DNA of 36,058 nt from Amoebidium appalachense (lineage: Eukaryota; Protista; Ichthyosporea): positions 1 through 36,058 of the forward strand of contig CAVNZM010000041.1 of assembly GCA_963693365.1 (NCBI GenBank). Reading direction: 5' to 3'. The translations under genes were made by a program, and so were the position numbers. The notes beneath the pieces are model-generated. The model searched no databases and was not told the DNA's origin. It was given only the letters and a program-made list of their open reading frames with translations. Positions within the stretch are counted from its first letter, which is position 1, and each line of letters starts with the position of its first letter. Positions 584 to 35,843 of this stretch are shown here, piece by piece.

Positions 584-2585
584 CCTATTTTTAGACGATC
601 GCGCTATTTCTAGCGCACTTGCATAGTAACCAGGCCTCAAAAAGGTGAAAAACGTGAAATTCACGTCATTTCGACATAGTAACATATATAACATGTAGGG
701 TCTCCGACGCCATGTCTTGGGCGCATTTGGTCATCGAAGTTGGCGACCTTCTAAGAAAACACGTGGTTTTTCCGCTAAATTTTAATTTAAACTTATATAA
801 CTTTGGTTGTGTGTTTCTGGAGCGGCTAAGACCACTATGTGCTCCTAGCTAGAGATATAGGCTAACGCATGCAAAAAACCCGACCACCTAATCTTAATTC
901 TGAGGCAACCTACCTAAGGTCCAACTTAGGGCACTTTTATCGAGAAAACCTTAGCCACACTGTCCCTGTTACCACCCGTTCTACTTCTAAGACAATGTTT
1001 ACGACTTTTCTTCAATTTTCCTGCTAGTTAATGAGGAAAATAAGTACGAAAGGTTTTAAACGTGGTTCTTCTTTACACTTGTTGCTACTAGTTCCAGTCC
1101 CTTCTATTGTAGAAAGACAAAATAAAGGAAGCTTATACCCCACGAAAGGTATGCTCGAGATCACAAACCCAAAGCAGTCTGCAAAGTCTGCAACTTTACG
1201 TCCCCCCGTCCCCCCCCCCCCCCCCCCCCCCCCACCACCACCACCACCTCCTCTCTCTCACACACCTACTGCTCCTGCTCTGGTTCTGCGGTGGCGTACA
1301 GGCACCCCCTTTTCCAGGTGCAGCTCGTAGCAGTTGCGATCTGAAATTTTGTAGCACAATGCCACACCGCACCTTGCTGCACATCCAGCGCACCCTGCTG
1401 CGCTTGTATCCCTTTGATCCGTGCGCACGCACATAACACAGTCGAGCCGCTTGCCGGAACCAATAAGCACCGGGTGACAGAGGTTGCTTCGTTTGGCGGT
1501 TGTGGTGTTTGTTGACAGCGAGTTTAGTATGCGCGCGCTTTGTTTGCCGGCTTGCAGAAGTGGGTTGTTAAGAAGTTCACCCGCAAGTTTTTCGCGCCAC
1601 TGCTCGTTTGAAAGTGCATTCTTGTCCCCGTCTGCAATGAATTGCTTGTAGGCCAGGTAGGTGTTTACAAACACCATACCAACTAACCCAGCAAAGGTGC
1701 GGTGCCAGGGTGTGTGGGGGACCCATGCCTGCTCGAGTGAACTGTTCCCTTGCCGGAGTTTGTTGTGTACGTCTGCACTGTTGAAATATGTGAAGTATTC
1801 GCGCACTGCTTTTGGCATGGGCACTTGTGTTCCGTTTTTTGTGATACGGGGAGCTCCTGCTTCCGTACTTCCTGCCGTCGTTACTACACGCATGCTGAAA
1901 TCCTTATGCTGCCAACGTATGGGGGGGATGGGAGAGGGAGAGGGCGAGCCCCCCGCCCCCCCCCCCCCCTCCCCCCTCCCCCCAATAAAAAGGATATATA
2001 CACCTTCGCACATCCCACAACTAGCTGAATCTCGCTCCGTGGTACTTCTTCTACTTTCCCGTCGTAGTCTATGTGTACCAACCATTTATTGTTCTTTAAT
2101 ACTTGCACAGTTGTGCCTGTGAGCTGTTTCGTTTCCCATTCTTCACCAACCACTCTTTACTCCAACGTTCATCATCGTTCCTGACTTTACCGCCAAAGAT
2201 GCATGCAAAAACCCAAACTCTCTGGTCTTTCCTTAAACGCCTAACCATTTTCTTTTCTTTTCACTTATTTCTACCCTAATTCTACCTTGTTCTTTTTGTT
2301 TTCTAGCGCGCAAACTATCATGCGGTGTCTTTTAGTTCGGAAACCAAACGGTGTCCGTGATCGGACAGTCGGACACCCCAAAACTGGGGGAAAACGGTTG
2401 CACCCATGATCTTTTGCGCGCCAAAAGCTACTCACCCTGCAGTCCTATTGGTTTTCTATAAAGACAAAAAAGGCAGGAAAATACTAGACCTCATTGGCCA
2501 TACCCAGCTTGTGGGGTGTTTCCTAGCGAAAACAACGCTAGCGACGCCGCCGAAAACGATAGGACACTTTTGTCCTTTTTAGCCA
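584..2585 (-). mobile_element. Internally deleted piggyBac-like DNA transposon
   Basis: TTAA on both sides (580-583, 2586-2589). Contains a piggyBac-type transposase remnant. Short GCGCTA/TAGCG palindromes lie near both ends (about 600-616 and 2523-2541). TIRs are imperfect. Confidence 0.65.
1258..2248 (-). pseudogene. piggyBac-family transposase remnant (N-terminal piece plus C-terminal part; most of the catalytic core deleted)
   Basis: About 1920-1258 encodes PKAVREYFTYFNSADVHNKLR..PWHRTFAGLVGMVFVNTYLAY..WREKLAGELL and a Cys-rich C-terminus (CVMC..CAARCGVALC..CYELH), matching the piggyBac DYN..GGVD/WW..VNAY/FR..L and CRD pattern. 2248 to about 2003 is a frameshifted N-terminal piece (MVRRLRKDQRVWVF..). 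Confidence 0.8.
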
Positions 2586-2589
2586 TTAA

Positions 2590-3141
2590 TTAGGACCGAT
2601 TTGTCCGGTTATGCGGATTATCAATATGGGACATATGGGTTGGGTATATTGCCAATATCCCAAAATGGTCAGGAAAAATACATTCATAATATATTGGCAA
2701 TAGTCTTGCCACGTTGGATAATACCCTAATTTGACACAAAATTGTCCTACATTTTATATATTCATAACGTATTGACAATACTCCGCAAGCAATAGTATAA
2801 TACCGAATAAGTACATTGACAATATCGAAATTGTATTGTTAATAGGCACACGTACACGCATTTTGGGATATTGCCAGTACATTACTCATACGGTATATAG
2901 TTATTGGTGGTAGACCTGACATGGTATGACAATAATATAAAAATATTATGCCGATATATATTACGTCAATATTACAGTTCTATTACACTTCTATAGCGTC
3001 TCTACCACAGAAAATCTCTACTCGCAATACATTGGCAATGGATAATTGATATTACTTCAGTATTAATCTGGTGTTTTTACGATATTGGCAATAGATAATA
3101 GCCTCACAATATTGGCAATACCACGGGGAAGTTTGCTGATG
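2590..3141. repeat. Right arm of the AT-rich fold-back element; probable terminus ...CCACGGGGAAGTTTGCTG(ATG)
   Basis: Same TATTG(G/C)CAATA array as 1-583. It ends abruptly where identity with the VLTF3-like copy at 15203-15422 begins. The reverse complement of the end, CATCAGCAAAC, resembles CMC/EnSpm C(A/C)CAGCAAA termini. Confidence 0.55.
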
Positions 3142-3456
3142 AACAGGCTGTACGGGCACCCCCTCCCTAGGTTCACGTGCGAGCAGTTGGAGTTGCTGAC
3201 GGGCATGTTTAAGTTTTCCTTGTCGTGGCACCGCCGGTACAAGGACGAGGCAAGGAAGAACTTTGTGGGGTACCCCTTCCTACTGGTGAAAATGGTAGGG
3301 TTAGTGAGTGGCATGGACGCAGAGGTGGTGGCCAGGCTGGTGCCTGCCTTCAAAAGCAAGGTGACTAGAGCAAAGTGTGACAGGGTGTGGGTGCAGCTGG
3401 AGAGGGACCTCAAGAACTACCACATGCTTACGGAATACAACATGTTTTGCTTGTAG
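3139..3456 (+). pseudogene. VLTF3-like (poxvirus A2-type late transcription factor) C-terminal fragment, endogenous viral
   Basis: MNRLYGHPLPRFT..RKNFVGYPFLLVKM..FKSKVTRAKCDRVWVQL matches the NCLDV VLTF3 pattern RKNFLSYSYVLYK..LKS....D.IW. 5'-truncated by the upstream array. Confidence 0.78.
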
Positions 3457-3462
3457 CCTGGT

Positions 3463-4020
3463 GCTACTTGTACCTATAGACTTGGTGGACAAGACTTGTG
3501 CACAATACATTGGGGGTAGCAGGTGGCGGTAGGGGGTGTGCCAGCACGTACCCACACTACCATCGGCCCACTCCGGTTTATTTGAACACCACAGGTGCCG
3601 TGCGTATGGGCCGGTTGGCGTTGACACCAGACAACGGCACGGTGTAGGCCAACGGACGTTGCCGAAAGTCCCGTATGGTGGAGACGTCCATGACGTTCAA
3701 GTTGTTGTTCTGTTCCGGAAAGATGAACGGTTTCTTGCGTGTAGGGGGACCGCCAATGTTGAGCTCCATGTTGCTGGTAGTTGCCTTGGTGTTCGTGTGT
3801 GTGCGGGGTTTGGTGATCGTGTTGGGTTTCTGAGTAGCACGAGGCTGTGTAGGGGGAGGGGTGGGGAGGGTTTTCATGCCCTGGCCCGGAGTCTTGACTT
3901 TCTTCTGCGTTGGGGGCGGCGGTTTGACTGCCGTAGGCTTCTTGGCGTCACGTGTCAGGGTGCTTTCATTGTCCGAAAGTACCGGGTAGTCGTCAAATTC
4001 ACTGCAAACCCCTGCATTAG
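3463..4020 (-). pseudogene. Decayed intronless ORF converging on the VLTF3-like gene; unknown product, probably viral
   Basis: P/T/K-rich then globular reading frame (MELNIGGPPTRKKPFIFPEQ..). It continues past TAA/TAG stops that look like C>T changes of CAA/CAG and ends tail-to-tail with VLTF3. Confidence 0.35.
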
Positions 4021-4240
4021 AAAATCGTGCCCTACAAAGCACGACTGTGATCACTACTACATGGGTATAAAGTCGTGCCGGCCGATCGACGATGTCGTTC
4101 TGACTCTTTTCTCTACGGGATGGTGCGCGCGCGCGCCGCCGTATTCCGGGAATGCATTCTTGGCCGTGACTCATCATCACGGCGCACAGGAATGCATTCC
4201 TCGATCGAACGTGCGCACACACGCGCGCACGCGACCACAG

Positions 4241-4329
4241 ACTCTGCACCGATCAAAACAGGCACCGACCTTACCCGTCGCCCAACGCCCCCCGACTCTG
4301 AACCGATAAAAATAGGCACCGACCTTCCC
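4241..4329 (+). repeat. Two-copy direct repeat, 54-bp period
   Basis: actctgcaccgatcaaaacaggcaccgacctt at 4241 and actctgaaccgataaaaataggcaccgacctt at 4295. Confidence 0.8.
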
Positions 4330-4919
4330 CCGTCCCCCCCCCCCCCCCCCCTCCCCCCTCCCGTCCCCCCACCCACCCACCCACCCCCACACGTGCACGT
4401 GCACCAGGATCCTCGTATAGGCCTCCAAACCCTGCCACCTACTGAGATGGCTCCTTATTTTTCCTTACACATTCAGCGAACACTGGACTCCATCGAACCG
4501 TCGAGGCGCCGCGACAGAAAGCATGCACGCCGTCAGTACGTGTGAGCTCCAAACCGTTTATTGTGACGACAGTATTTATTCAGTTCGATGTCACCGACGC
4601 AGCTCATGCGTGCCACTTTTCACGTAGCCCAGGCACATGAACACAAGAGGAGCATAAACATCTAAATGTTAACGTTACAACGAAGTACTATGATATGGCA
4701 TCTAAATGTTACAACGATGAACTATGAGATGGAGAATACTAATATGTTAACACAGCAGAGCACCTACTTTGCACTATCCGGATTCTTTGGAGGTACTTCT
4801 AAGAAAATGATAATATGTTGTCACCTTGAGTCTTGCACGAGACAACACAGCTTAATGTATACACGTTCATAAACAGCTATCACTAACACAATATTCTATG
4901 TACTTGCACAGTTTGAGCT

Positions 4920-7200: not shown

Positions 7201-7877
7201 TGTAAACAGTTGGACTAGTTAGGATAAGGCAGAGTGCAACTGAATCAAAATAAAGACAGAGAACGGGTAGTAAGGCACGCGCGGCCAGGTTACTATTTAA
7301 TGTGCTCGTTCAGAGTGATCCCCCGTACTGGGACGGCTTGTTTATATAGCCCCCAGGTTCCGGATCATCTGGATGGGTGGCATTGATGCCTTCGTGACTT
7401 CTGACCAGTCAGAAGTTGCGATCGTCCTTATGTGCACACAGTGCACCCATAACAGGAAGCCAACTAAATAGGATAACTTTGTGGCAAATGATTGGTCAAC
7501 ACTTAAGCCCGTTTAGGTTTATACAAATGGGTCTGACTTCCTTATTGGTTCCGTTCGTTTAGCTACAGATGTTGCCTTCGTAGTGGATGAGACTTGCATT
7601 CCTATCCTAGCGGTTCTCGAATTGCTATTGGTTCGTACTGACTGCACGGCCACTGCATGTTGCCGGCGCCGCGGCTCAGTCGTGAGCCGCAGCCCGCGGC
7701 TGTCGCGTATGATATTGATCTGATCATATGTACGCGGCGCCTCAGTCGCGAGCCGCAGCCCGCGGCTGTCGCGTATAATATTGATCTGATGATATGTACA
7801 CAATATCTACGTGATCGCTATGATATGTACAGTATATTCGTAATAGTAAACATCTACGGCGTGTACAGATGTTTACA
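7201..7877 (-). mobile_element. 5' LTR of a second LTR retrotransposon family; internal region lost
   Basis: Terminal inverted TGTAAACA...TGTTTACA. First ~90 bp nearly identical to 28862 onward. Minus-strand TATA (gctatataaa, about 7341-7350) and adjacent PBS. Internal ~66-bp tandem duplication at about 7675-7800. Confidence 0.85.
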
Positions 7878-9304
7878 ACGGGGTGTACCACACTGCATTG
7901 GTGTTTTGTTAGAAGCACTCTTGTCTCAAACCTATGGTAGAGCTGTGGTTAATGGGCACCTTTCATATGGTTTTTCTCGTACTAGAGGTCTCTTGCAGGG
8001 TTCATTGCTTAGCCCCTTTTTGTTTAACCTATTTATAGATGATTTGGCTGTCAAGATTTATGCCGAAAACGATGACCCTATTAATAACTTTCCGCCTGCA
8101 CTTCTCTATGCTGATGATCTGTCCCTCCTTGCCCGTACCCCTAGATGCCTGCAAAGATTGTTCGATGAAGTGTCAGAGTGGTGCAAGGCAAACCTTATGA
8201 TCCTTAACATAGACAAATGTGGTGTTCTTGTACCTGATATAGCCAACAATTTACACACATTTACATTATCATCTAAAAATGTACCTATAGTTCCAGAATA
8301 CAAATATCTTGGTGTTCCGGTTAATTCTGTTGGTGTTATGTTTTCCCATATGGTTGAAAAGAGGGTAGAGCTGGCTCGTAAGCGGTTAGCTTTCTTCTCG
8401 GCTAATATTCTTAAAGACACCCCCCTCCATCCTTCGATTAGAATTACATTTATTCTCACTTTTGTCTTCCCGGCATGTGAATATGGTTTACCCCTTCTCG
8501 CCGCTTGGATAAAGAAAGAGAGAACTAGAGCGCTTAAACCCCTGGCAAATTTCCTTGAAGCAGAAGTTGCCTCCTTTCTATCTAACAACTGTTGTAAACC
8601 TGGGCCTGTAACGCTCTCGATATATGGTCTGGTCCCAATAGCTGCTAGAGTATCTCATCTCGCGCTGAAATTCAATAAGCACATAAGCCGCTTAAAGAAG
8701 TATTTGCCCTCCCACCCTCTCTTCTCTATCCACCTATCCCCTCTTTCCTTCCCTCTCTCTCTCCTTCTCCCCCGGGCACAAATACAAATAGACCCCACAA
8801 AAGTGTGTGTGTGACTTGGTACTGCCACTTACTTTTTAGACATGTACATAATCACAAAATAATTACGCAATATAACAAATGGAAAAAGATGCCACACGAC
8901 ACTAGACCCGATGAAAGCGTACACCTTGAAAAACTAAGCCTTATGTCTCGGTTTATATATAATGACCGCCTTAACCATATTACCAAATATGGCACTCGCA
9001 AATGTGTAACACCTAAATACACATTACCTTCCTGTAGAATAGGTCTTTCTCTAACTGATGGTATTATTGATCACATACCACGCTTTTACTGTACACGTGC
9101 TATACAGTGGAGATCTAACTTAATAAGTATAAGGTGGCATCATTTGCATGCCCAAACAACACACACACACACACCAGTTTAAACGATCATGTATCGCCAA
9201 ATGTAGTTTAATTGTTGGAATACGTCACCATGTATGACAGCAAGAGCCTTGAAGTATGTATGTGTCCTAGCTTGTTTGTATTCGTGTCTGCTTTCCTTCT
9301 TTGT

Positions 9305-9348
<44 letters not shown>

Positions 9349-10290
9349 CCCCCTCTCTCTCCCCCCCCCCCCCCCCCCCCCCCCGTATCTCTCTCTCCCT
9401 TGTTTCTGTGGGCACAGATATCTGTAGATCTGTGCACACCTGGCTCTCTTGCCTGATAAGAACTTATTGTATTTTATTTCTGTTTGCTCTCCTCTGTTTA
9501 TCTGAGAGGTAGCGTGATTGGCTAGCCTCACTCGTTGTCTTTCCTTTATTTCAAAATGGCTTAGTTTTGTTCTCAATAGGATGGCTCGCCAATAGTCGCG
9601 AGCGAGTACATCTGTAGATTGTGTTGTGCATTCCAGTCTATTAATATATGTGTGTTGTGATTGGACAATAGATATATATGGAATTCGGTTTATTGCAAAG
9701 TGTCTTCACTTTGAGAGTGTCGACTATTAGGAAATATATGTATTTAAATAAGTTTCTTTATAGAGACGAACATAAATATATATGTGAGTTAATAGTGACT
9801 AGATGTATAATTACTTAATTTATTTAAGTAAGAGTTTCTAAACTTTAGTTTAATCGGAAGTTGGAAAGCGTATGCTCTGTCGGAATGTGTTTTTCTATCT
9901 TCTGATAGAACCGATTGGTTCTCCCTCTTTAGTTGTGATAAGGTGATAAGTCGCAAGTACAAAAGGAACCGAGAGCACAATAAAGAATCAGTTGTTGTTT
10001 GAAATCTTTCAATGTCTCGTGAACAACTCCGATTGCCCTCTCATTAATGTGTTAGTCGTGTTTTACATGACACCTCTGTGCACTCTGCTCCCTTAGACCC
10101 GTACAAAAACAACATTAATAGACCACATTATACCGCAACACACACACACGACACATTCACAACAGACACCCAGAAAGATAGCCTACCTGAAAATTACAAC
10201 ATCCTTGATTTTATACTAAACACGCGTAACTACGACCTGTTTATTAGATGTATTGATTGGCTTGAGAAATACGTCATTACAAAACTCTAG
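7878..10290 (+). pseudogene. Non-LTR retrotransposon (LINE) reverse transcriptase, 3' part, interrupted by a solo Copia LTR
   Basis: GLLQGSLLSPFLFNLFIDDL, LLYADDL, LNIDKC and YKYLG RT motifs. The C-terminal part continues with frameshifts (8805-9212) and resumes after the LTR to ..ILDFILN..YVITKL*. Confidence 0.88.
9213..10114 (+). mobile_element. Solo LTR of the Copia family at 19518-26649, opposite orientation
   Basis: TGTTG...CAACA ends. 5-bp TSD TTAAT (9208-9212, 10115-10119). Near-identical reverse complement of the Copia LTRs. Confidence 0.95.
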
Positions 10291-12715: not shown

Positions 12716-13966
12716 ACCATTCAGCCTCGCACAACCATCTTCACACAATAACCCCTCATTAAGTTCCGGTTTGTGTGTAGAATCTAGAGTCATTGCCCGA
12801 GGAGATCTGTGTGACTGAAGATAGTGAGCCGAGGCGATGCGGTTACCCACTCACTTGAACGAGCCTTTCAGCAGACCAGCGCACTTGAACTTGGATGACG
12901 TGGAATAAAGAAAACAAAGAAGATAGAAACATGACCTGAAAGGGGGGGGCGGGGGGCGGGGGGGGGGATAAAACAGTTTTTCCACCCGCGTTTCGTCATC
13001 AGAGACCTAAAGAATGGTTCCGTCACAAAGACCTCAGATGCCATTGCGAGCTACTTCATCTGGCCATCGTATTTGCAAAGGTTGCTTATGCTAGCAAGAA
13101 CTGTAGGTGGATGTTTGGACTGAAGGAGGGGCCTTGGCATACAGATGCCAACGGGAATTCCTCCCTATAAGCCATCTGTGTGCTTTTCCTATCTCCAGCA
13201 TATGACGTAAGGTCGAGAACGCCCTGGACATCAATAGCCGTGCTTGAATGTCTCCAAGTAAGTGAAGGTCAAAGCCATGCCTAATGTGATTGTACTCTTC
13301 CACGGGTATGGTTAACACGTGACTGAAAGGACAGCGAAAAGAAGTGGCACATCATGCAGGTGCTGTGGGGGTGCAAGTCGTAAACATACACAAAACGCAT
13401 TTATTCTCACATAAGGATTTACTGTACTGGCAAGACTTTCTCTGTCACAGTGGCAGTGTGCAAGGAGTTCACTGGTTTAAAGCAACCTACGTTCCAGCTG
13501 TATTGTGCACCCTTGTACATTTTGACAGCTAGCCATGCAAACCAGCCCAAACAAAATCCTCCTCTAGGTCATCTTGCAGAAGGCCACCTGTGCCATCGGA
13601 AAGGAAAACAGCACCAGCATGCAATAAAAAAATAAAAAAATGCTAGCCATCCAATCCTGCAGCCCAAACGAGCCAATAGAAAGAAGCTGGTCAGGCAGTG
13701 AAACGTTATTAGAGGCGAGGTATCTAGCTGTGAAACAATCTGACAGGTACGTCGGAACTGCGAGCACGTGCACAAGGTACCCACAACCAGTCACAGCGTG
13801 TCTCTGACAAGAGCCCCGAGCACCGAAAGGGCACAGTAACCAACAGGGACTTGAGCACATCCAACATCTCGATCACTGTATGGGTAGACACCATCACCAG
13901 GCCCTGCCAGTCCACCTCAACACCCCCCATGCATCCCTATTCACCACGCTACCTATTGCTCAACCG

Positions 13967-14729
13967 CTAGACATCCTTCGTCACGACGTCGTCAACAAGT
14001 TGCTGGTTGATCCCTGCAGCTCGGCAAGCGCATTCAAAGCTGATGCGTTGCTCTTCAGTGTGAAACACGCCGTCGGGATCGGGAATTGCTAAAACTTCAA
14101 GGAACTGGTGATGGTGCATGGACGAAAACGCCATAAGGTTCTTGAAAGCGCTGATGATAATCTTGCGTCTCTCTTCGGTAGGGATAGCTTTGGCAACCTC
14201 GCCCAGAAATTCCCGACTACGGGCGAAGTCGGTTAGTGCCTCGGTTGTTGTAATTTTTTTTTTGCGCTGCAGATTCTCCCTGGGTTGTCCGCATTCTCGC
14301 CCTCTGTTCATCAGCAATGACCTCGAGCACAAAACGCACCGAGAGCTTCTGTTCTTGCAACTTGGAGTTTCTCAGCTGGTTCTCGAGGGTGTTGACTCTG
14401 TCCTTCGCAGCCCGAACTTCATCCTTCGCAGCCACAACTTCATCCTTCGCAGCCACTGTAATAGCCACAACTTCAGCCTTCGCAGCCACAACTTCAGCCT
14501 TCGCAGCCAACGCCTGGCTAAGAGCTGCGTCCTTCCCAGCCAACGCCTGGCTAACAGCTGCGTCCTTCTCGAAATACAACCGCCGCCAGAACTCAACTGA
14601 TGAAGGATCAGAGGTAGTCAGGGTACTAAGGGCACGTGTGCGCCATGAGGCCACAGTACTCACACTACTGATCGTGCATGCGGCGTGGCGCAAAAGAATG
14701 CGCGGTCGCATAAGCAAGGAGACAGCCAT
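13967..14729 (-). CDS. Coiled-coil protein with a mitochondrial-presequence-like N-terminus (about 253 aa; one-base frameshift in an A10 run)
   Basis: ORFs 14217-14729 and 13967-14332 join if one A is removed at 14254-14263. The first 40 aa are R/S/L/A/T-rich with no D/E. AAK(D/A)EVV heptads come from 21-bp tandem repeats. The C-terminal region contains LSVRFVLE..LMAFSSMHHH. Confidence 0.65.
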
Positions 14730-14974
14730 TCTTCCAAAGATGTAGTTAGTGCTTTGAAAAGACTACCGTCGATCAGTTACACACTACTGGGTAAATGTGG
14801 CTGCGTCATCGGATTCGAGGCAATCCGATCTTATTACCAATAAAAGCCGATGCGATCGCGGTTGTCCAATCAAGAAGTCCCAATCCCGTAATTTTGGACT
14901 GCTCCCCCTAGTTGAACAGTTTGGGGGGACTGGTGTAAGGGTTTTCGGGTCGGGCCGAAGGCCCTATTGGGCCG

Positions 14975-15204
14975 CCAAGCCCGGGGGCCCCGGGGACCAG
15001 GGGCCCCCCCACCCAGGGAGGCCCGGGACCGGGGGCCCCCCCACCCACGGAGGCCCGGGGGGCCACGGGGGCCCGGCGTTAGTTTACCGGGGGGCCACGG
15101 GGGCCCGGCGTTAGTTTACCGGGGGGCCACGGGGGCCCGGCGTTAGTTTACCGGGGGGCCACGGGGGCCCGGCGTTAGTTTACTACTAACGCCGGGCCCC
15201 CGTG
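14975..15204. repeat. GC-rich terminal repeat: two ~33-bp units, four perfect 32-bp units, ...ACTACT end and 20-bp hairpin
   Basis: (cggggggccacgggggcccggcgttagtttac)x4 at 15056-15183, then tact. Stem 15160-15179 pairs perfectly with 15185-15204 around loop TTACT. Confidence 0.95.
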
Positions 15205-15991
15205 CTTTTGACGGCAGGCACCAGCCTGGCCACCACCTCTGCGTCCATGCCACTCACTAACCCTACCATTTTCACCAGTAGGAAGGGGTACCCTACAAAG
15301 TTCTTCCTTGCCTCGTCCTTGTACCGGCGGTGCCACGACAAGGAAAACTTAAACATGCCCGTCAGCAACTCCAACTGCTCGCACGTGAACCTAGGGAGGG
15401 GGTGCCCGTACAGCCTGTTCATGATATAAGGTACGTGCACGTAGTGCCGTGTGAGCTTGTTCTGCCTCAACACCCTCCTTGCCTGGTCTGCACTCTCTCT
15501 GTGTTGCACGCCCCTGAATGCTGCCACCACCCCCTCCTGCATGTCCCCCATAGACGCATTCAATAGCCCTTGAACCGACTGCAGCAGCTGCTTGAAGTGG
15601 TTAATGTGTCTGTACGGCTGAGACCTCTTTCTGTCCCAGAAGGCCGTGCAGAGTCCCTCGTACGTCTTCCTCCCCTCACCGTCACTCCCCTCCCACCCCC
15701 TCCCGTCGTACACCCAGTCCTCCTCCTCCTCCTCCCCCTCCCCCCCTCCCTCCCCCCTCCTCGTACACGTACTCCTGGTCCCCTCTCACCGTCGTGCTCG
15801 TATTCGTCGTGTTCCCCCGTGCACGTCTCCCTCTCCTTGCAGGATGCCCACCAACATGCACACGGTGGCTGTGGTTTTGGTTGTGTGGTGGTGGTGTTGC
15901 AGTACATGTCATAGAGGAAGGGGCACAAGTCTAGCAGCTTCTCAGGGTCTGTGGTGTCGGCCACCATACTTAGCAGTGTGTCCTCGTCCAT
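15203..15991 (-). pseudogene. VLTF3-like late transcription factor, N-terminal and central part, endogenous viral
   Basis: PYRHINHFKQLLQSVQG..RRVLRQNKLTRHYVHVPYIMNRLYGHPLPRF..RKNFVGYPFLL follows the VLTF3 YKRINHF..YYEH...I..RKNF pattern. Cys-containing N-terminus with a frameshift near 15790. AT-rich AAAATTAAAATG start context. 3'-truncated by the hairpin. Confidence 0.82.
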
Positions 15992-16087
15992 TTTAATTTT
16001 AATTTTTTACGTGTGTGTGTGTGTGTGTGTGTGTGGCCTACGGGTGTTGCAAAAAGTGAAGTGTTTGTGTACATGTGTGTGCGCCTT

Positions 16088-16706
16088 TTATATGTTTTGG
16101 TGCCTGCTCTTTCTGGCAAGCCTCCCACCCTTGTATGCATGTACGGTGGTGGTGTTGGTGTTGTTTCTACCTGTGCCTGCATGTGGTGGTCTGCTGAACG
16201 ACACGTTTGTGTTTGTGTTTGCATTAAGTCCTGATTTTAATGGCTGTTGCCCCTCGTGCACACGGTGCACATGGTGTATACCTAAAAACACACTCTTTTT
16301 CTTTAAGTTCTTCTTCTGACCCCCCTGCCCGTGCACATGGTACCCTATTTTTCTATCTTTCAAAGCTAAGTTAACAGACACCTCATATAATTTTCAAATT
16401 TACTCTAATGTAACTTCAGGTGCTTAGATTACGTATGGTCCGCATGCTCTAACTAACCCCCTCCCCCAATCAAAACTGCAGCGTGCCCTCCGGTGCAGCC
16501 CACCCAATGGGGTAGCTGCGTACACTACCGTCTGCCGCCTCAAACACCCCCCTCTTGTCGAAGGCACCCGACTGTGTCTTGCGCTGGTCCTTGCTGGCCA
16601 GGTGGTAGTTGTGGGGGACCCCGGGCACGGGTTCACGGAGCAGCCGGTGGTTGGTGACGCTCACACTCGGCAGCTCGCCGTGCACCAGCCTACAGAGGTT
16701 GGGCAT
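16088..16706 (-). pseudogene. Decayed intronless ORF(s) upstream of and co-oriented with the VLTF3-like gene
   Basis: MPNLCRLVHGELP..GWAAPEGTLQF is followed by several TGA/TAG stops. No family recognised. Confidence 0.3.
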
Positions 16707-16746
16707 GTTGACGGTGTCGGCTGCACGGCGGGAGAGGGTGATGCCG

Positions 16747-18315
16747 CATCAGCAATCTTGCCGAAACATCCGGAACCCATAAAAGATACATTAAAGATAT
16801 CCATATACTCAAACCCATCCTGAACATAACCCTACATCCAGTTCATGGGTTTAAGATATGTAAATATAAATGGATATTAATCTTGGATATCTACGGCTAA
16901 TATGTATATAGATATCTGTTAAAACCCTGATATCCATTGGATAACTACTGTTAGGGATCCACTAGATATCCACGGGAAACGTGATATCCAGTGGATATCG
17001 AACACTAGATATGCAAATACACATGCACAACATATATACTGGATATGCAACGAAGGTATCCAGTGACTGGAAACCTGCCGAAAACCCTATCCATTATGAT
17101 ACGTAATATATATATATAACATGCATAAAAGGTGCACAATCGAGATCCAATTGATATGCTGTGGGTATTACTAACCTAAATCATATGTAATTGATACAAA
17201 AGAGATGTAATTTGATATGCAATACATATAGGTTGTGCATAGATTTATTACCGAAAATGCGGTTCATTAGATATACAGATAGCTATGTATATAGGCATAG
17301 AATACCTATATTGACTATATACAGTCAGGTCACCAATAGACCTCATAATAGTTGCCAAGTAGACCAAAGCATAGAGGTTTTATTTGTGGAAATTATTGAC
17401 ATAAATATTTTTCTGGGTAAACACGTAGGATGGGTGTTCGATACCAACATAACCATGTAGGCTTCATTTCGTGTTTTAGCAGTTAGCGGTTGGCTGCCCG
17501 CACACGGGCACCTATTAGCCAGTCAAAACATCAGATACCACAGATCACTAGACCGAGTTATGATTGGCTCGGAACAGATTTCACATATCACTAGATCGAT
17601 TTTTGATTGGTTCAGATCGGTAGGCTTAGGTATATAAGCACGACAGTTTTTAGCAGATCAGCAAGCTACAAACACATCTTCTGTGTTTAGCATCCACAGC
17701 CTTACAGCTATATATTCCTTTTCACCCACCCACCTACACCCACACACAACCCCCATTGATCCACACATACGTGCTGTTTTTTCACGGGGCGAAGCCTTCC
17801 CCCGTTTTTTGGGCACATGGACCTCACGGATCAATAAATTGATGACTGGGGGCTTGCCGTGGTTTACAACCATTGCAGGTTCACTTTCGTCCAAGGGGAT
17901 GTCCCCCTAGAGGCAACACACGTCCCGGAGTAGTTTTTCATAGATATCCAACATGCATCCCAGTATATATGCACTGGATCAGTAAATGAACAACGAAAAT
18001 GGATGTGATAGACGACCAAAAGACACCCTTTAGATATCGGCCCTTGCATATATTATATATATAAATAGACATATAGGCAGAAATCCGAACAACGTGTCTG
18101 GATATGTATGTTATATCCACAGTGATATCTAATACTTATCCGTTGCATGTATATCCTAAGGACTAATCTAATATATGAGTGATATCCAATCGGATATCAT
18201 CACTTCCGTGTCTGGATATGCACTAGATATCCAGTTTGATATAATTTAGCAGTCCATTAAATATATATCTCGATGAGTAGTCTAATATATAAATAATGCC
18301 CAATTGGATATGCAA
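16747..18315. repeat. AT-rich GGATATC/GATATCC array, probable left subterminal region of a large DNA transposon
   Basis: Many dispersed GATATC-type palindromes. Begins CATCAGCAATCTTGCC, 14/16 identical to the reverse complement of the end at 3141. Interrupted at 17376-17938. Confidence 0.6.
17376..17938 (+). mobile_element. Non-coding terminal-repeat relic of the Ngaro/DIRS-like family
   Basis: 17376 to about 17725 is a diverged inverted copy of 32618-32953, with the same ATTGG boxes and TATATAAG. Flanked by CATAGA at 17370-17375 and 17939-17944. Confidence 0.7.
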
Positions 18316-19517: not shown

Positions 19518-20260
19518 TGTTGTTTTGTACGGGTCTAAGGGAGCAGAGTGCACAGAGGTGTCATGTAAAAACACGACTAACACATTAATGAGAGGGCAAT
19601 CGGAGTTGTTCACGAGACATTGAAAGATTTCAAACAACAACTGAATCTTTATTGTGCTCTCGGTTCCTTTTGTACTTGCGACTTATCACCTTATCACAAC
19701 TAAAGAGGGAGAACCAATCGGTTCTATCAGAAGATAGAAAAACACATTCCGACAGAGCATACGCATTCCAACTTCCGATTAAACTAAAGTGTAGAAACTC
19801 TTACTTAAATAAATTAAGTAATTATACATCTAGTCACTATTAACTCACATATATATTTATGTTCGTCTCTATAAAGAAACTTATTTAAATACATATATTT
19901 CCTAACAGTCGACACTCTCAAAGTGAAGACACTTTGCAATAAACCGAATTCCATATATATCTATTGTCCAATCACAACACACATATATTAACAGACAGGA
20001 ATGCACAACACAATCTACAGATGTACTCGCTCGCGACTATTGGCGAGCCATCCTTTTGAGAACAAACTAGGCCATTTTGAAATAAAGGAAAGACAACGAG
20101 TGAGGCTAGCCAATCACGCTACCTCTCAGATAAACAGAGGAGAGCAAATAGAAATAAAACACAATAAGTTCTTATCAGGCAAGAGAGCCAGGTGTGCACA
20201 GATCTACAGATATCTGTGCCCACAGAAACAAGGGAGAGAGAGATACGGGGGGGGGGGGGG

Positions 20261-20312
<52 letters not shown>

Positions 20313-20444
20313 GAGAGAGGGAGAGAGAGAGAGAGAGGGAGAGAGAGAGAGCACAAAGGAGGAAAGCAGACACGAATACAAACAAGCTAGGACACATACA
20401 TACTTCAAGGCTCTTGCTGTCATACATGGTGACGTATTCCAACA
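19518..20444 (-). repeat. Copia 3' LTR, preceded on the minus strand by PPT GAGTGGGGA (20445-20453)
   Basis: Direct repeat of 25717-26649; about 3 substitutions seen by eye plus microsatellite length differences. Confidence 0.97.
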
Positions 20445-21162
20445 TCCCCACTCAAGGGGTTGAAGTTTGTGTTCTCGTGTCTGTTGATGTGACGGTAGAT
20501 GAGGTCCAAACACAGGAGGGGCCGTCACACTCAAGTTTCCCCACTCGAGGATGCAAACCGAAGATCCTTGAGGTGGGAAGGAGAGAATCAAAACTGAAGA
20601 GGCACACAACGACGGTTGCCTCTGAAGACTCGAAATAAGAAATCATGGTGGTTATCGGCGATATATATATATAGATAGGAAACACTAGTGTATGTGTGAC
20701 GTGTTGGTGGCTAATGGTTTATACTGGGGACCACCCAGGTAAACACAAGACATGAACATCTTGTGGACTGATTTATAGACTGGTGGTCAACCAGTTAAGA
20801 CACGGGGAAGGTGCATCCCGTGGACTAGGTTTAGACTGGCAGTCAACCAGCACGTCATGGCTATAGATAATTATTTATACTGGGACGCCATCCCAGTTCG
20901 ACATATATATAAGTCGAATATAGAAGAAAACCAATATATATGGTGGGATATGAATATAAATAAACGACGGATGGTGGAGAATAATCGCCACTGAAGATGC
21001 ACACATATGACGATGGAAGACTGAGTCCCCACTGATGAAGAGAAACGATGAGGAGTAGTAGACTTTCGTTGGGAGGCATCTTGATCACCGTAGGTGTGTC
21101 AACTGCTGTCCAGGGCCCCAACCTACTCAGAAACCACTCGATGATGAACACCAGTGCACGGG

Positions 21163-23046
21163 TCAGTCACGGAGACTGAGGTTGGCACGGTGTGTGTCGT
21201 GGGCCGTACCAGCCAGAGGCTTGGTGAAGATGTCGGCCAGGTTCTTCTTGGTGTCGATGTAGGTGACAGTGACGTCCCCACTGTTGATGTAGTCCTTTGT
21301 GTTGAAGTAACGAACGGCAATGTGCTTGGTCCGGTGCTTGATGGTGTTGGAGTGGACCAGAGCAATGGTGGACTGATTGTCACAGTACACGGGGGTGGGC
21401 TCGGTCATGGGGTAGCCCAGCTCCTTTAGTAGATCACGGTGCCAGACAACATCTTGCACGGCAGCATTGAGGGCCAGGAGCTCGGCCTCACACGTGGAGG
21501 TTGCAGTGATCGTCTGCAGCTTGGAGTGGTAGGTGACGGGGGAGCCTTCGAGGAGGATGACGTACCCAGACGTGGAACGACGGGTGGTGGGGCAACCAGC
21601 AAAGTCAGAATCCGAGTAGCACTCAAGGATGGGCACCTTCAAGTTGCTGTTGGGGGCCTTCTTCTTGTAGTAGAGGCCGAGGTTGATGGTGCCGAGCAGG
21701 TAACGAACGACACGGAGGAGAAGCTCCCAGGCAGTCTTGGTGGGCTTGGAGCTGAATCGGCCGAGGTAGCCAATGGCATACGAGATGTCAGGCCGGGAGC
21801 ACCGAGCAACTTGAACCCACAGCAGACGGCCGAGGAGTTCACGGTAGGGGACGGTGGTGGGCAGGGATGAGTGGGAGGTCTCGTTGATGATGGTGCCCAC
21901 GGGAATAGGGGTGGCCTTAGGCTTGGCATCGACCAGGTTGAAGTCGGTGATGATGTCCTTGATGTAGGAGGACTGCAGCAGCTTGAGGGAGTCACGGGTG
22001 TACAGCAGTTGGGTGCCGAGGAAGATGTCTGGCAGACCGACCTTGCACTCGGCAGACTTCGTGATGTGACGAACAAGCCCCTGCATGATGGTGGAGTTCC
22101 GTGTGCAGGTGATGATGGCATCATCAACGTAGTTGCCCGAACGGATGATGTGCCCGTTGGGGAACTGACGGAAGTAGACACACGGATCGGAACGGAGACG
22201 GGTGAGGCCGTGGGCAATGAGAATGGAGTTGAAGAACTCGTACCATGCCAGGGATGCCTGCTTGAGTCCGTAGATGGCCTTCTTGAGTTTCCAGACTTTG
22301 TGTTCATTGCCAGGGAGGATAAAACCAGGAGGTTGCTCCATGTACAAAGTCTCGTCGAGGGGGCTGTTGAGGAAGGCCGTGCTGATGTCGAGTTGATGGA
22401 TCTCGTGGTCCTGTTGCACACCGAGGGCAAGCAGGGCACGGACGGAGGAGGACATGACGACGGGGGAAGAGTTTTCACCGTAGTCAACACCGTAGACTTG
22501 GGTGAAACCCTTGGCCACACCACGACCCTTGATCTTGGTGTCACCAGCAGAGTTGAGGGCCTTCTCCGTGACAATCCACTTGAATCGGATGATGTTGGCA
22601 TCGGAGGGGGGCTCAACTACGTCGAAGATGTCCTTGTCGATGAAAGCCTTGTACTCGGCAGTGAGGGCAGTCACCACTTCATCACCCTTGGTGCCAGAGC
22701 ACAGCTTCTGAATTGACCGGGGCAGCTGAGACACATCAAGGCTGGGTCGGGAGATGCTCACCATAGCCATAGCAGGCCGGGAGGCGAGACGGGAGGAACG
22801 ACGGGGAACGGTACGGAGGGGCTCAGGGGCCGGGGGGTTGTCTGTGACAGACACTCGGTGGTCGGGGATGGGGGCCTGGAAGCCAGGGATGGGTGCCGTG
22901 TTGAGGGGGGAGTCGGATAACACGGGGCTGGACGGGGCCGAGTGGAACTCCGGAGACCCAGGACGAACCGGGGTGAGATGACCAGGTACGTGGTCATTGA
23001 CGGCAGGGGCCGGCAGCAGGGGTTGCTGACCGGTGGGGGGGGGGGG
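21163..23046 (-). CDS. pol: Copia pol: reverse transcriptase and RNase H
   Basis: KGRGVAKGFTQVYGVDY, QLDISTAFLNS, KLKKAIYGLKQAS, YVDD, YSDSDFAG..RRSTSG, CDNQS, RTKHIAVRY, ADIFTKPL. Confidence 0.97.
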   Translation of the reverse strand, partial: PPPPTGQQPLLPAPAVNDHVPGHLTPVRPGSPEFHSAPSSPVLSDSPLNTAPIPGFQAPIPDHRVSVTDNPPAPEPLRTVPRRSSRLASRPAMAMVSISRPSLDVSQLPRSIQKLCSGTKGDEVVTALTAEYKAFIDKDIFDVVEPPSDANIIRFKWIVTEKALNSAGDTKIKGRGVAKGFTQVYGVDYGENSSPVVMSSSVRALLALGVQQDHEIHQLDISTAFLNSPLDETLYMEQPPGFILPGNEHKVWKLKKAIYGLKQASLAWYEFFNSILIAHGLTRLRSDPCVYFRQFPNGHIIRSGNYVDDAIITCTRNSTIMQGLVRHITKSAECKVGLPDIFLGTQLLYTRDSLKLLQSSYIKDIITDFNLVDAKPKATPIPVGTIINETSHSSLPTTVPYRELLGRLLWVQVARCSRPDISYAIGYLGRFSSKPTKTAWELLLRVVRYLLGTINLGLYYKKKAPNSNLKVPILECYSDSDFAGCPTTRRSTSGYVILLEGSPVTYHSKLQTITATSTCEAELLALNAAVQDVVWHRDLLKELGYPMTEPTPVYCDNQSTIALVHSNTIKHRTKHIAVRYFNTKDYINSGDVTVTYIDTKKNLADIFTKPLAGTAHDTHRANLSLRD

Positions 23047-25606
23047 TGGGTGGAGCCACGGGGGCAGGTACATGACGGGGGGAACGACGGATAATCACCG
23101 ACGGAATTTCATCGTCATCGGAATTGGAATTTCCGGAATGCAGGGATGAATCGATTGAGGTCGTCTGATTGGTGGCCTGCACGGAAATCTGATTGGATGC
23201 CGTGGTGAATTGTGATTCGTCGAAGACGACATCGCGGTAGAGGTTGACCGTGTTGCCACGTAGATTCATGATCTTGTGGGCTTTGTTGGTGATATCCCAG
23301 CCCACGTAGGTGCCGAGTTTGACGGTAGAGGCCAACTTGTCTCGTTTGGATGCAGGGACGTGTACATAGGCTGGGCAGCCGAACACGTGCAGGTGGGAGA
23401 TGTCAGGCTTGACACCGTAGAAAATTTCAAACGGTGTACGGCCATTGGCAGCTCTGGCCGGGGTCACGTTGATGATGTAGGCAGCATGCTTGAGAGCAGC
23501 TCCCCACAGTTTGGGGGAAAGGGAGTCGGCCTTGTCCTGATGAAGGAAGCACCGAACGATCTCCTGCAGATCCCTCATCTTACGTTCAACGAAGCCGTTG
23601 AGTTGGGGGCAGTCAACCGGGGCAAATTCTTGAATGATGCCCTTGGACTGGCAGTACTGCTCCATAGCGTGGGAGGTGAACTCGGACCCAGAGTCTGAAC
23701 GGAAGTGGGTCACCACCTTGTCGGGTTGCTTGTCAGTAGTCTCAACCAGGGCCTTGACGTATTCGAGAGTTTCGGATCGATCACGGAGGAGGTACACGAT
23801 GGTGTAGCCGGAGGCATCACAGGTACACACGAGGGCCACCTTGTAGCCACCATAGGAGGCACAGGGAGGCTCGAAGAAGTCCATGTGCCACTTGGCACCG
23901 GGGAAGGGGCACTGGGTTCTGGTGCCGGAGAATGGGGCCTTGGTGGTCTTGCCGGAGACACAACCGAAGCAGTCAGTGGTGTCAGCCACTGAGAGGGATG
24001 AGGGGAGGCCTGTCACGAGGTCACCTCTCACCATCTTGGTGAGGGTGGACAGGGCACGATGGCCGAGACGGTGGTGCCAGAGCTGAGGATCATTGTTGAC
24101 CTTGACGTTGGCTACCAGAGCAGTGACGGTCCGAGGGATGGAGGGACGTATCTCATAGTCAGTGATGAAGTACAGTCCATCTGTGCCTGTGAGGGAACAC
24201 ACGATGTTGCCACCACGAGTGTAGAGGTATGATGGGAATGCATCCTCATCATCGAGGTGGGCAAGGAGACCCGACTTGGAGGCCATTGAGGGTGATATCA
24301 GGAAGGCTGGGGAGTCGGGTACATAGAGGGTGTTGAGGCTCAGTACTGATGTTACTCCGTTGTAGGTGACGGCCAGGTTGATGACACCACGGTGATGTGC
24401 AGTGACGATGCCGAGGCCGTGGACGTCAGTCGGGGGGCATGGCTCAAGAGTAGAGAAGTACTCTTTTACTGGGCACACGTGGACGTTTGAAGCCGAGTCC
24501 CAGCAGGGGTCCATGGGTAGGGAGGCCGTGGTGGACACGAGGGCAAAATGCACCTCTTTTCCAGACTTGGTGTTGGCACGGTGACGACGGGCAATTGAGC
24601 AGCCAGGTTTGTCACACTGTGTGACATGATGGTCTTCGTGACAGTAGGCACAGTCGAGGGAGCCAGTGGTCTTGGCTCGGGGTGGCTGGGAATGACGGTT
24701 ACCCCCTTTACGTGGGGGGTAGGGTGACCGGGAACGATAGCCGGGGGAACGGGACCGTGAGTAATCACGGTCAACTGAGGGGGATCGATCGGTGGGACGA
24801 CCGCGGGGGTGACGGGAGACGGAGCTGTCACGTCGGGGGATCCGGTGTCTGAGGTCGTCCTTGGTGAGTACACGGCTTTGCAGGGCACGTGCTGTTCGGA
24901 CGGTGGAGGAGGACCCGGACCCAGAGTCGATGAGACCTTCACGGATCTCTGCAGCTCTGATGTCACTGATTAGACGGTTGTAGGTCTCGTAGTTAATGGT
25001 ACGACGGAAGTAGTCGGCAATCATGGCCTGGATGTCGGTACAAACTAACTTACGGTTCTTCTTGAGGTGGATGAAGAAGTTATCAACCATAGTCTTGTGA
25101 GGAATGGGCTCTTCGAGGATGTGCAGGGTAGTGCACAGACGGCGTGCCATGGTGAGGTAGGCCGTGACGGTCTTGAAGTCTTTGAGTTCAAGCTCATGGT
25201 AGTCGAGGAGGATTTGACGAGCACGATCTTCACGTTCAGCCGCATAGGTCATACGGAGGTTGTGGAAAGCTTGGGCAGGTGACACATCATCGTGGATTTG
25301 ACCAGAGTTATACAGCTCATCATTGGAGACGAGTTGAGTAAACATCTGTTCAAGGAGGTTGGAAGCCTCGGTGTAGGCCTCCTCAGTGTAGTAGCCGTGC
25401 CACTCATTCTGGTCGGAAGGGTCGACCCACTCGGGGGCCTTGATGACGGGCACTAACTTGGCCGCGGTGGTGGTACGTAGGTACCGGAAGATGACGGGTT
25501 CCCACTCATAATAGGTGAGACGTTTGCCGGACTTCTTGTCCGTGGTGTCATCCCCTTTCCAGGGGGTGAGGTTGAGATACGCAGGTTTCTCCGACATGGT
25601 GATCAA
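23035..25606 (-). CDS. gag-pol: Copia gag-protease-integrase; joins RT across a frameshift in a G12 run (23035-23046)
   Basis: CAYCHEDHHVTQC zinc knuckle, WDSASNVH protease, LWHHRLGH..CFGC, DDE integrase (HMD, RSDSGSEF, PQLNGFVER), HLHVFGC and RDKL. Confidence 0.96.
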
Positions 25607-25702
25607 TCAGTCAGATGATGCGTGAGAGAGGAATCAGATCGGTATTCAAATTTGAATATTTTTGATTGCAGCGAGAGTATGTGTTTGCGAGAGCGTGCGA
25701 AA

Positions 25703-25716
25703 ATGGGCCTTTAACC
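25703..25716 (-). promoter_or_regulatory. Copia primer-binding site of the half-tRNA type
   Basis: GGTTAAAGGCCCAT follows the 5' LTR directly; it resembles the GGTTATGGGCCCAG half-tRNA-iMet PBS. Confidence 0.7.
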
Positions 25717-26469
25717 TGTTGTTTTGTACGGGTTTAAGGGAGCAGAGTGCACAGAGGTGTCATGTAAAAACACGACTAACACATTAATGAGAGGGCAATC
25801 GGAGTTGTTCACGAGACATTGAAAGATTTCAAACAACAACTGAATCTTTATTGTGCTCTCGGTTCCTTTTGTACTTGCGACTTATCACCTTATCACAACT
25901 AAAGAGGGAGAACCAATCGGTTCTATCAGAAGATAGAAAAACACATTCCGACAGAGCATACACATTCCAACTTCCGATTAAACTAAAGTGTAGAAACTCT
26001 TACTTAAATAAATTAAGTAATTATACATCTAGTCACTATTAACTCACATATATATTAATGTTCGTCTCTATAAAGAAACTTATTTAAATACATATATTTC
26101 CTAACAGTCGACACTCTCAAAGTGAAGACACTTTGCAATAAACCGAATTCCATATATATCTATTGTCCAATCACAACACACATATATTAACAGACAGGAA
26201 TGCACAACACAATCTACAGATGTACTCGCTCGCGACTATTGGCGAGCCATCCTTTTGAGAACAAACTAGGCCATTTTGAAATAAAGGAAAGACAACGAGT
26301 GAGGCTAGCCAATCACGCTACCTCTCAGATAAACAGAGGAGAGCAAATAGAAATAAAACACAATAAGTTCTTATCAGGCAAGAGAGCCAGGTGTGCACAG
26401 ATCTACAGATATCTGTGCCCACAGAAACAAGGGAGAGAGAGATACGGGGGGGGGGGGGGGGGGGGGGGG

Positions 26470-26553
<84 letters not shown>

Positions 26554-26649
26554 GAGCACAAAGGAGGAAAGCAGACACGAATACAAACAAGCTAGGACAC
26601 ATACATACTTCAAGGCTCTTGCTGTCATACATGGTGACGTATTCCAACA
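25717..26649 (-). repeat. Copia 5' LTR
   Basis: Direct repeat of 19518-20444; followed by the PBS on the minus strand. Confidence 0.97.
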
Positions 26650-35728: not shown

Positions 35729-35806
35729 CTGTGAGGAGGCAATGATTGTGAGACACATTGAATTCCATCATGTTTATCATGTATCTAATCGCACGTGTGC
35801 ATATTC

Positions 35807-35843
<37 letters not shown>

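What the first reader, a model, noticed from the sequence alone, without database searches (positions are those of the whole stretch)
14975..15204. Terminus or origin of a virus-like replicon: 32-bp iterons, AGTAGT end and perfect hairpin
Seen: four identical 32-bp units each end in TAGTTTAC, then TACT, then a 17-nt inverted copy that completes a 20-bp stem with a TTACT loop. Read inward on the minus strand the end is 5'-AGTAGTAAAC. Known: AGTAGT-type ends are typical of protein-primed Polinton/adintovirus TIRs, and stem-loops with TAGTATTAC plus iterons are HUH rolling-circle origins. Inference A: a Polinton-like TIR end that folded back (ACT microhomology) and was joined to VLTF3 DNA through CA microhomology. 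Inference B: an HUH-type origin with a TAGTTTAC nick motif. Either way it marks the physical end of an uncharacterised element.
Basis: partly seen in the sequence, partly recalled or inferred. Interest (0 to 1): 0.8.

Follow-up and report, generated by a model that had tools for sequence, protein, structure and literature searches.

The report
Folded-back end of broken viral relic
Four identical 32-letter repeats end in a perfect hairpin fused to a cut-off viral transcription-factor gene; this is likely a one-off DNA-repair scar at what is probably the tip of a decayed Polinton-like virus lodged in a eukaryote's genome, rather than a working replication origin.

Summary
It is no assembly artefact: contigs of 3 of 5 public runs laid carry hairpin and join. 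The hairpin fits snap-back repair letter for letter: terminal ACT pairs with AGT, 17 nt are copied, TG anneals to VLTF3. Read inward the end is 5'-AGTAGT, the commonest Maverick/Polinton end motif, and about 300 bp inward other genomic sequences diverge from a shared segment, as at the inner edge of a terminal inverted repeat. But no other copy of this array was seen to stop at ACTACT, no second arm, target-site duplication, pPolB, integrase or capsid is in the window, and no genome is held. The HUH-origin reading fails: no Rep, the motif straddles stem and loop, and 2 of 3 runs show an uncompensated stem change. Best reading (0.45): degenerate Polinton/adintovirus-like end, folded back and fused once. 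VLTF3-bearing, often truncated endogenous adintoviruses are already described. Interest low.

The parts
15055..15182 (.). Four identical 32-nt GC-rich tandem units
   Evidence: unit contig present in X1, X2, X6 and X12
14989..15060 (.). Two degenerate 32-nt GC-rich units of a different consensus, variable between public contigs
   Evidence: 2.2 copies, 90%; 10-nt insertion at 15024 in X1 and X6
15182..15187 (-). Inferred element tip, 5'-AGTAGT (Maverick/Polinton-type (AGT)2 end motif)
   Evidence: sequence; motif per PMC8097293 passages; that it is a true tip is inferred
15188..15204 (+). 17-nt exact inverted copy of 15160-15176 (inferred snap-back synthesis); last 2 nt (TG) shared with VLTF3
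15160..15204 (.). Perfect 20-bp stem with 5-nt loop TTACT
   Evidence: in contigs of X1, X6, X12
14890..14988 (.). Segment shared with other genomic loci; other sequences join on its left at 14890-14894 (candidate inner edge of a terminal repeat, or outer end of a short element); small GGGCC hairpins vary between copies
   Evidence: loose ends before 14890/14893 (X1), 14890 (X2), 14894 (X6, 3 contigs), diverged relative in X2 record 11
13967..14729 (-). Intronless coiled-coil gene pointing inward from the repeats, behind three CCAAT words (14837-14884); frame broken in a homopolymer run near 14254 where public contigs differ in run length; no family found
   Evidence: no hits
15203..15991 (-). 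VLTF3-like viral late transcription factor gene, truncated at its 3' end by the hairpin join and broken in a low-complexity tract near 15730-15790
   Evidence: Pfam PF04947 E 5e-9; alignments; best relative P0001, 47%
3139..3456 (+). Second VLTF3 piece (3' part), inverted copy of 15200-15422 at 98.7% that runs on past the hairpin breakpoint; defines the breakpoint

Best explanation
The four identical 32-nt repeats and the 20-bp hairpin are fused to a truncated VLTF3 gene over a 2-nt overlap; the repeats are likely the terminal repeat of a decayed endogenous Polinton/adintovirus-like element ending in 5'-AGTAGT, and the hairpin is likely a one-off snap-back repair scar, not a functional origin. 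Steps: (1) shown: array, hairpin, overlap, truncated VLTF3, presence in 3 runs coded as 3 organisms. (2) Inferred, about 0.7 on its own: a free 3' end ...TTTACTACT paired its last ACT with AGT across a 5-nt loop, a polymerase copied 17 nt, and the new TG annealed to TG in a VLTF3 gene, giving the join (snap-back synthesis-dependent microhomology-mediated end joining). (3) Inferred, weaker: that free end was the tip of a protein-primed element whose terminal repeat runs about 300 bp inward to 14890-14894, with the coiled-coil gene as first internal gene. (4) Inferred: the event happened once, before the sampled lineages split, and has since drifted neutrally; what survives in the window is a fragment among other transposon debris.
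For: Letter-for-letter fit to the snap-back signature, primer inverted repeat + insertion + microhomology (model per PMC5728401 passages). A pre-existing ACTACT end gives a 3-bp primer over a 5-nt loop, whereas an end inside an ordinary unit would leave a 2-nt loop (sequence). (AGT)2//(ACT)2 is the commonest vertebrate Maverick end motif, TIRs 46-1447 bp, mean 402 (PMC8097293 passages). Different sequences join the shared segment on its left within 5 nt (14890-14894) in 3 of 4 runs. A graph model predicts unit:junction depth 3:1 for one 4-unit array; 2.73 (X1) and 3.17 (X6) were seen (depth is only a rough guide), and the junction contigs run unbroken through 15187 and 15204, so the join behaves as a single event. 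Stem arm 1 carries an uncompensated change in 2 of 3 junction contigs (1-nt gap at 15163 in X6, C>G at 15169 in X12). The partner is viral DNA: VLTF3, present as 2-3 diverged versions that continue intact past 15203 in X1, X2, X6. Endogenous adintoviruses that encode VLTF3 and are often truncated are described in a protist (PMC11244446 passages).
Against: No other copy of the array stopping at ACTACT: no loose end behind 15180-15204 among 18 of 20 rows shown and no joints. No second arm in the window, no 6-bp TSD, no pPolB, integrase, ATPase or capsid in 22 ORFs plus 120 stop-to-stop segments against Pfam or 21 against PHROGs. The (AGT)2 match needs only one base that is not already supplied by the unit and the inverted arm, so it can arise by chance. 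The DNA inward of 12850 is microsatellites, a LINE RT, a solo LTR and a piggyBac-like gene, not a compact virus. In X6 the three other left flanks average the same depth as the junction (75), which fits single-copy host flanks of a short element as well as inner arms. Host and VLTF3 clade are not identified; the adintovirus link is by analogy. X12's stem change rests on one contig at depth 9.5.
Confidence: 0.45

Rival explanations
1. The repeats are an ordinary GC-rich minisatellite upstream of a low-copy host or cargo gene; a chromosome break in it was healed by snap-back joining to viral DNA, and the AGTAGT is chance. No element end is involved.
For: Array appears once per junction; three CCAAT words and an ORF follow it; a nearly identical VLTF3 piece sits inverted 12 kb away, as in a duplication-inversion rearrangement; no Polinton core genes in the window.
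Against: Other loci share 14890-15000 with a sharp left edge, which points to a repeated element; a break inside a unit gives a poor fold-back primer (sequence).
Confidence: 0.18
2. The end is the terminus of a CMC-type (CACTA/Chapaev/Plavaka) cut-and-paste transposon: the minus strand starts 5'-CACGG at 15204 and the direct and inverted units would be subterminal transposase-binding repeats; the element would have inserted into VLTF3.
For: Minus strand at 15204 starts CACGGGGG; Chapaev TIRs begin with CAC (PMC3014272 passages); CACGGGG also stands at 3122, 17 nt from the other VLTF3 breakpoint. Direct/inverted subterminal repeats in CACTA elements are recalled, not looked up.
Against: Match at 3122 is 7 nt (10 such words outside the array), with no TSD and unrelated flanks; no 15-nt match within 3 mismatches elsewhere in the window; no CMC transposase found; the other half of the interrupted VLTF3 is not at a matching end.
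Confidence: 0.12
3. 14893-15204 is a non-autonomous rolling-circle element (Helentron/HINE-like) or an HUH origin: T-run at the left end, central tandem repeats, terminal palindrome recognised by a Rep encoded elsewhere.
For: Several flanks join at a T-run at 14890-14894, about single-copy depth each in X6; HINE/DINE-1 elements carry central repeats, a 3' palindrome and T flanks (PMC4067079 passages); mriyaviruses combine VLTF3 with an HUH endonuclease (PMC11253617 passages).
Against: No inverted partner of the candidate 13-nt subterminal repeat within 2 mismatches; no Rep/helicase in the window; TAGTTTAC (15176-15183) straddles stem and loop and neither recalled CRESS nonamer occurs in the window; the two flanks are unrelated, so not a clean insertion; uncompensated stem changes in 2 of 3 junction contigs; no match in viral or metagenome contigs.
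Confidence: 0.15
4. The element had a covalently closed hairpin telomere with adjacent tandem repeats (poxvirus-like layout, recalled); the hairpin was nicked off-centre at integration, leaving a palindromic overhang joined to VLTF3.
For: Off-centre opening of a hairpin gives the same perfect inverted duplication (general knowledge); partner gene VLTF3 is a Nucleocytoviricota marker (PMC11253617 passages).
Against: Free hairpin-ended molecules would branch the graph at 15205; contigs of X1, X6, X12 run on unbroken and no strand-switch joint was listed. The exact Maverick-type ACTACT would be coincidence.
Confidence: 0.07
5. The hairpin is a chimeric-read or assembly artefact.
Against: Hairpin and join stand in contigs of X1, X6 and X12, three studies, three organism codes; at most one is likely to be the window's source.
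Confidence: 0.03

Closest known systems
Maverick/Polinton (Polintoviricetes) termini, 5'-(AGT)2//(ACT)2-3' (PMC8097293, passages)
   Same: Same 6-bp end motif; candidate terminal repeat of about 300 bp lies within the reported 46-1447 bp; most Maverick loci are eroded, as here.
   Different: No second arm, 6-bp TSD or core gene shown; the end carries a fold-back and is fused to viral DNA, not to a host target site.
Endogenous adintoviruses of the protist Amoebidium (PMC11244446, passages of text and supplement legends)
   Same: Mid-sized endogenous viruses that encode VLTF3, carry terminal repeats, occur in many copies and are often truncated.
   Different: Host of this window not identified; their terminal sequences were not in the text I could see; capsid, PolB and Dam genes are not detected here.
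Snap-back synthesis-dependent MMEJ junctions (PMC5728401, passages)
   Same: Inverted primer repeat (AGT/ACT), templated insertion, microhomology (TG) forming a new longer inverted repeat.
   Different: Described at engineered breaks in Drosophila; here inferred from one natural junction, enzyme unknown.
Helentron/HINE/DINE-1 and Replitron HUH transposons; CRESS-type origins (PMC4067079, PMC10288648, passages)
   Same: Tandem repeats next to a terminal hairpin; T-run at one boundary.
   Different: No subterminal inverted pair, no Rep, no clean insertion, stem not conserved.
Chapaev/CMC transposons (PMC3014272, passages)
   Same: One end reads 5'-CAC.
   Different: No matching TIR, TSD or transposase.

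Membership tests
Maverick/Polinton/adintovirus | 5'-(AGT)2 or (AG)3 end motif | tested here: met
   AGTAGT at 15187-15182 minus; motif per PMC8097293; 13 other AGTAGT words in the window, so weak alone
Maverick/Polinton/adintovirus | Pair of terminal inverted repeats 12-40 kb apart | tested here: inconclusive
   None in the window; only 15 kb lie inward; no genome held; shared segment with a sharp left edge in public contigs
Maverick/Polinton/adintovirus | 6-bp target-site duplication | not testable with these tools
   Needs the other arm; this end is joined by fold-back
Maverick/Polinton/adintovirus | pPolB, integrase, ATPase, capsid genes inside | tested here: not met
   None in the window: Pfam on 22 ORFs and 120 segments, PHROGs on 21; the rve hit belongs to a Copia element; genes outside the window not testable
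Maverick/Polinton/adintovirus | Other copies of this end stop at ACTACT with varied flanks | tested here: not met
   Unbroken contigs through 15187 in X1, X6, X12; depth ratio fits one array; no such loose end in 18 of 20 rows; contigs drop rare variants
HUH rolling-circle origin (CRESS, mriyavirus, Replitron) | Conserved nick motif exposed in the loop | tested here: not met
   TAGTTTAC is 8 nt, half in the stem; recalled nonamers absent from the window
HUH rolling-circle origin (CRESS, mriyavirus, Replitron) | Linked HUH Rep gene | tested here: not met
   window only
HUH rolling-circle origin (CRESS, mriyavirus, Replitron) | Stem conserved or compensated across copies | tested here: not met
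   Uncompensated change in 2 of 3 junction contigs; small sample
Helentron/HINE | 11-15-bp subterminal inverted repeats | tested here: not met
   one match only
Helentron/HINE | Insertion in T-T without TSD, empty sites | tested here: inconclusive
   T-run at 14890-14895 with varied flanks, but left and right flanks unrelated
CMC (CACTA/Chapaev) | 5'-CAC terminus | tested here: met
   PMC3014272
CMC (CACTA/Chapaev) | Matching TIR with short TSD and transposase | tested here: not met
   window only
Snap-back SD-MMEJ scar | Inverted primer repeat + templated insertion + microhomology at the joint | tested here: met
   model in PMC5728401

The most novel reading that the evidence does not exclude
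A VLTF3-bearing Polinton-like virus whose (ACT)2 end, backed by 32-bp repeats, self-primes into a hairpin as part of its replication or integration: a living intermediate between protein-primed Polinton ends and the hairpin-plus-tandem-repeat telomeres of large DNA viruses, caught here at an integration junction.
Probability: 0.07. Interest if true: 0.65.

Novelty: new member of a known kind. Interest (0 to 1): 0.22.

Why it matters
If the best reading holds it is a modest finding: one more decayed Polinton/adintovirus-like insertion, useful as a base-level record of how a viral end is captured by fold-back repair and fused to other viral DNA, and as a probe (14890-15187) for locating intact family members. 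It would matter much more only if fold-back ends recur at many loci or in free molecules, which would speak to how hairpin-ended large DNA viruses arose from protein-primed ancestors; the public contigs examined show a single junction.

Tried and rejected
Exact DNA patterns from the array, tip and shared segment found 0 matches in viral contigs and 0 in metagenome contigs. Single-protein locus searches found no confirmed relative; an alignment search gave 80 loci kept of 123, all at 23-32% identity; none of the 80 held the end sequence or a relative of five other window ORF pieces. The coiled-coil gene had no homolog, no atlas hit, no PDB hit below E 0.74, a poor single-sequence model (pLDDT 56.5) and no Foldseek match at E<=0.001. 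The ORF at 16473-16748 had no hit. Rfam: only a chance match to MIR950, E 0.26, far below threshold. The Copia RT search did not identify the host (best hits 31-38% identity). X2 and X9 have no cover at 15185-15199, and X2's VLTF3 contig runs through 15203 into intact sequence: this may mean the join is missing in that sample, but contigs do not show absence. No RNA holder is listed; X12 (recorded 'DNA?') covers 13090-14772 deeply and lacks 14818-15019, which looks like a transcript of the coiled-coil gene but is not evidence. Earlier-findings look-ups returned nothing. I found no paper describing this end in searches; figures of the PMC11244446 supplement are pictures and could not be seen, and may show adintovirus ends.

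Full report
Observation. The window shows four identical 32-nt units at 15055-15182 and a perfect 20-bp stem, 15160-15179 with 15185-15204, around the loop TTACT. Two further GC-rich 32-nt units of another consensus precede them (14989-15060). The hairpin is one of 2 with a stem of 11 bp or more in the window, the other a microsatellite; 0 of 1000 shuffles reach 20 bp and the fold z-score is about -10.

Setting. The window is eukaryotic repeat debris: a piggyBac-like gene, a LINE RT, a Copia element with a solo LTR, many microsatellites. Right of the hairpin lies a VLTF3-like gene on the minus strand (PF04947, E 5e-9) that stops short at the hairpin; a second piece at 3139-3456, 98.7% identical over 223 nt and inverted, runs on to a stop codon. 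Comparing the two fixes the breakpoint at 15203-15204 with a 2-nt overlap. The best relative, P0001 (47%, 281 aa, E 3e-31), is unnamed and lies on a 17.8-kb contig; it, P0002 and the window's protein lack the cysteine pairs seen in three longer relatives. Left of the repeats, three CCAAT words precede an intronless coiled-coil gene at 14729-13967 with no detectable family. No pPolB, Polinton integrase, ATPase, capsid, Rep or CMC transposase was found in the window.

Is it real? No genome is held. 20 of 24 listed runs hold part of 13000-16000, from 5 studies. I laid 5 of them. Hairpin and join stand in contigs of 3 of 5: X1 (15154-15231, no difference, depth 218), X6 (15151-15232, one gap, 75.5) and X12 (15139-15232, one difference, 9.5); these have three organism codes and three study codes. 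X2 and X9 do not cover the second arm, which proves nothing. VLTF3 continuing intact past 15203 is seen in X1, X2 and X6, in 2-3 diverged versions.

How many copies? A k=31 model of one 4-unit array predicts a 59-nt unit contig at three times the depth of a junction contig starting at 15154. X1 shows exactly those contigs, ratio 2.73; X6 gives 3.17. Depth is only a rough guide, but the junction contigs also run unbroken through 15187 and 15204, no loose end lies behind 15180-15204 among 18 of 20 rows shown, and no strand-switch joint is listed. So this array seems to have one exit, the VLTF3 join; the prediction that other copies stop at ACTACT was not met. In 2 of 3 junction contigs arm 1 carries a change that arm 2 does not compensate, as expected of a neutral scar. 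Further in, the picture changes: other sequences join the segment from the left at 14890-14894 in X1 (2 contigs), X2 (1) and X6 (3), and a diverged relative with a different GC-rich repeat exists in X2. Bin arithmetic gives about 75 per flank in X6 (junction-like depth) and about 1070 in X1, so these may be inner arms of a family or host flanks of a short element; I cannot tell.

Mechanism. The join reads as primer P1 AGT (15177-15179), loop TTACT, primer P2 ACT (15185-15187), 17 copied bases, the last two shared with VLTF3. This is the signature of snap-back synthesis-dependent microhomology-mediated end joining (PMC5728401, passages). I put this step at about 0.7. The end that folded back reads 5'-AGTAGT inward, the commonest vertebrate Maverick end motif, with terminal repeats averaging 402 bp (PMC8097293, passages); the distance to the shared edge here is about 300 bp. 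A pre-existing ACTACT explains the primer naturally, but only one base of it is not supplied by the unit and the arm, and AGTAGT occurs 13 more times in the window. VLTF3-encoding, often truncated endogenous adintoviruses are known from a protist (PMC11244446, passages of text and supplement legends), and VLTF3 also occurs in some Polinton-like virus groups (10.64898/2026.06.19.733378, passages) and in mriyaviruses (PMC11253617, passages). The host here is not identified. Together: 0.45 for a folded-back Polinton/adintovirus-like tip.

Rivals. A promoter-side minisatellite broken and healed the same way (0.18). A Helentron-like element or HUH origin (0.15): it has the T-run edge, central repeats and palindrome (PMC4067079, PMC10288648, passages) but no subterminal inverted pair, no Rep, a motif half in the stem (the nonamers are recalled) and an unconserved stem. 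A CMC transposon end (0.12): CAC start (PMC3014272, passages) but no partner, TSD or transposase. A hairpin telomere opened off-centre (0.07): same footprint, but no free hairpin form shows in the contigs. Artefact (0.03). PMC12220804 (passages) was read for terminal-repeat features and added only general TIR/TSD background.

Membership and novelty. It works like a repaired Polinton end; membership is not established, since core genes were not found in the window and arm pairing and TSD could not be tested. No relative of the end was found in viral or metagenome contigs nor a description in nine paper searches. I file it as a probable new, decayed member of a known kind. Interest 0.22; the boldest reading not excluded, a self-priming Polinton-like end bridging to hairpin telomeres, has probability 0.07 and would merit 0.65.

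Noticed in passing
window 17376-17731 and 32611-32953: 357-nt inverted repeats at 87% identity bracket 15.6 kb holding a gag-like ORF with Cys/His knuckles (31421-32587, minus) and a nested Copia; resembles an inverted-repeat (DIRS-like) retroelement, resemblance recalled, no Pfam hit.
   Followed up: no
window 19518-26649; solo LTR 9213-10114: Copia element with TG...CA LTRs 98.6% identical, pol in two ORFs (integrase 22994-25606, RT 21163-23073), plus an inverted solo LTR at about 95%. The LTRs contain poly-G and (GA)n tracts.
   Followed up: partly
window 34809-35888 (minus): ORF with an OTU-like protease motif; 12 weak PDB hits (E 0.16-0.75), all to the same stretch, several being viral polymerase N-terminal domains and one named ubiquitin thioesterase; no Pfam hit.
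   Followed up: partly
window 1-3128: piggyBac-like transposase piece (1258-2085, DDE_Tnp_1_7, E 0.008, below cut-off) flanked by long AT-rich regions with repeated ATTGGCAATA words; it ends at CCACGGGG just before the inverted VLTF3 piece.
   Followed up: partly
window 15430 / about 16480 (run X12, record 15): A 1205-nt public contig joins VLTF3 at 15430 to sequence resembling window 16480, i.e. another deleted derivative of the VLTF3 element; a further different join appears behind 15232.
   Followed up: no
window 3581-4348: Unassigned 224-aa ORF (minus) and a 54-nt two-copy repeat downstream of the second VLTF3 piece; possibly more of the same element (no family).
   Followed up: partly
window 7642-8814: LINE-type RT fragment (RVT_1, E 3e-15) starting with a 66-nt two-copy repeat; 7201-7367 recurs at 28862-29047 (82%).
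   Followed up: no
window 16750-17375 and 17940-18300: AT-rich stretches full of GATATC words on both sides of the left inverted repeat; they cut off the VLTF3 element on its right.
   Followed up: no
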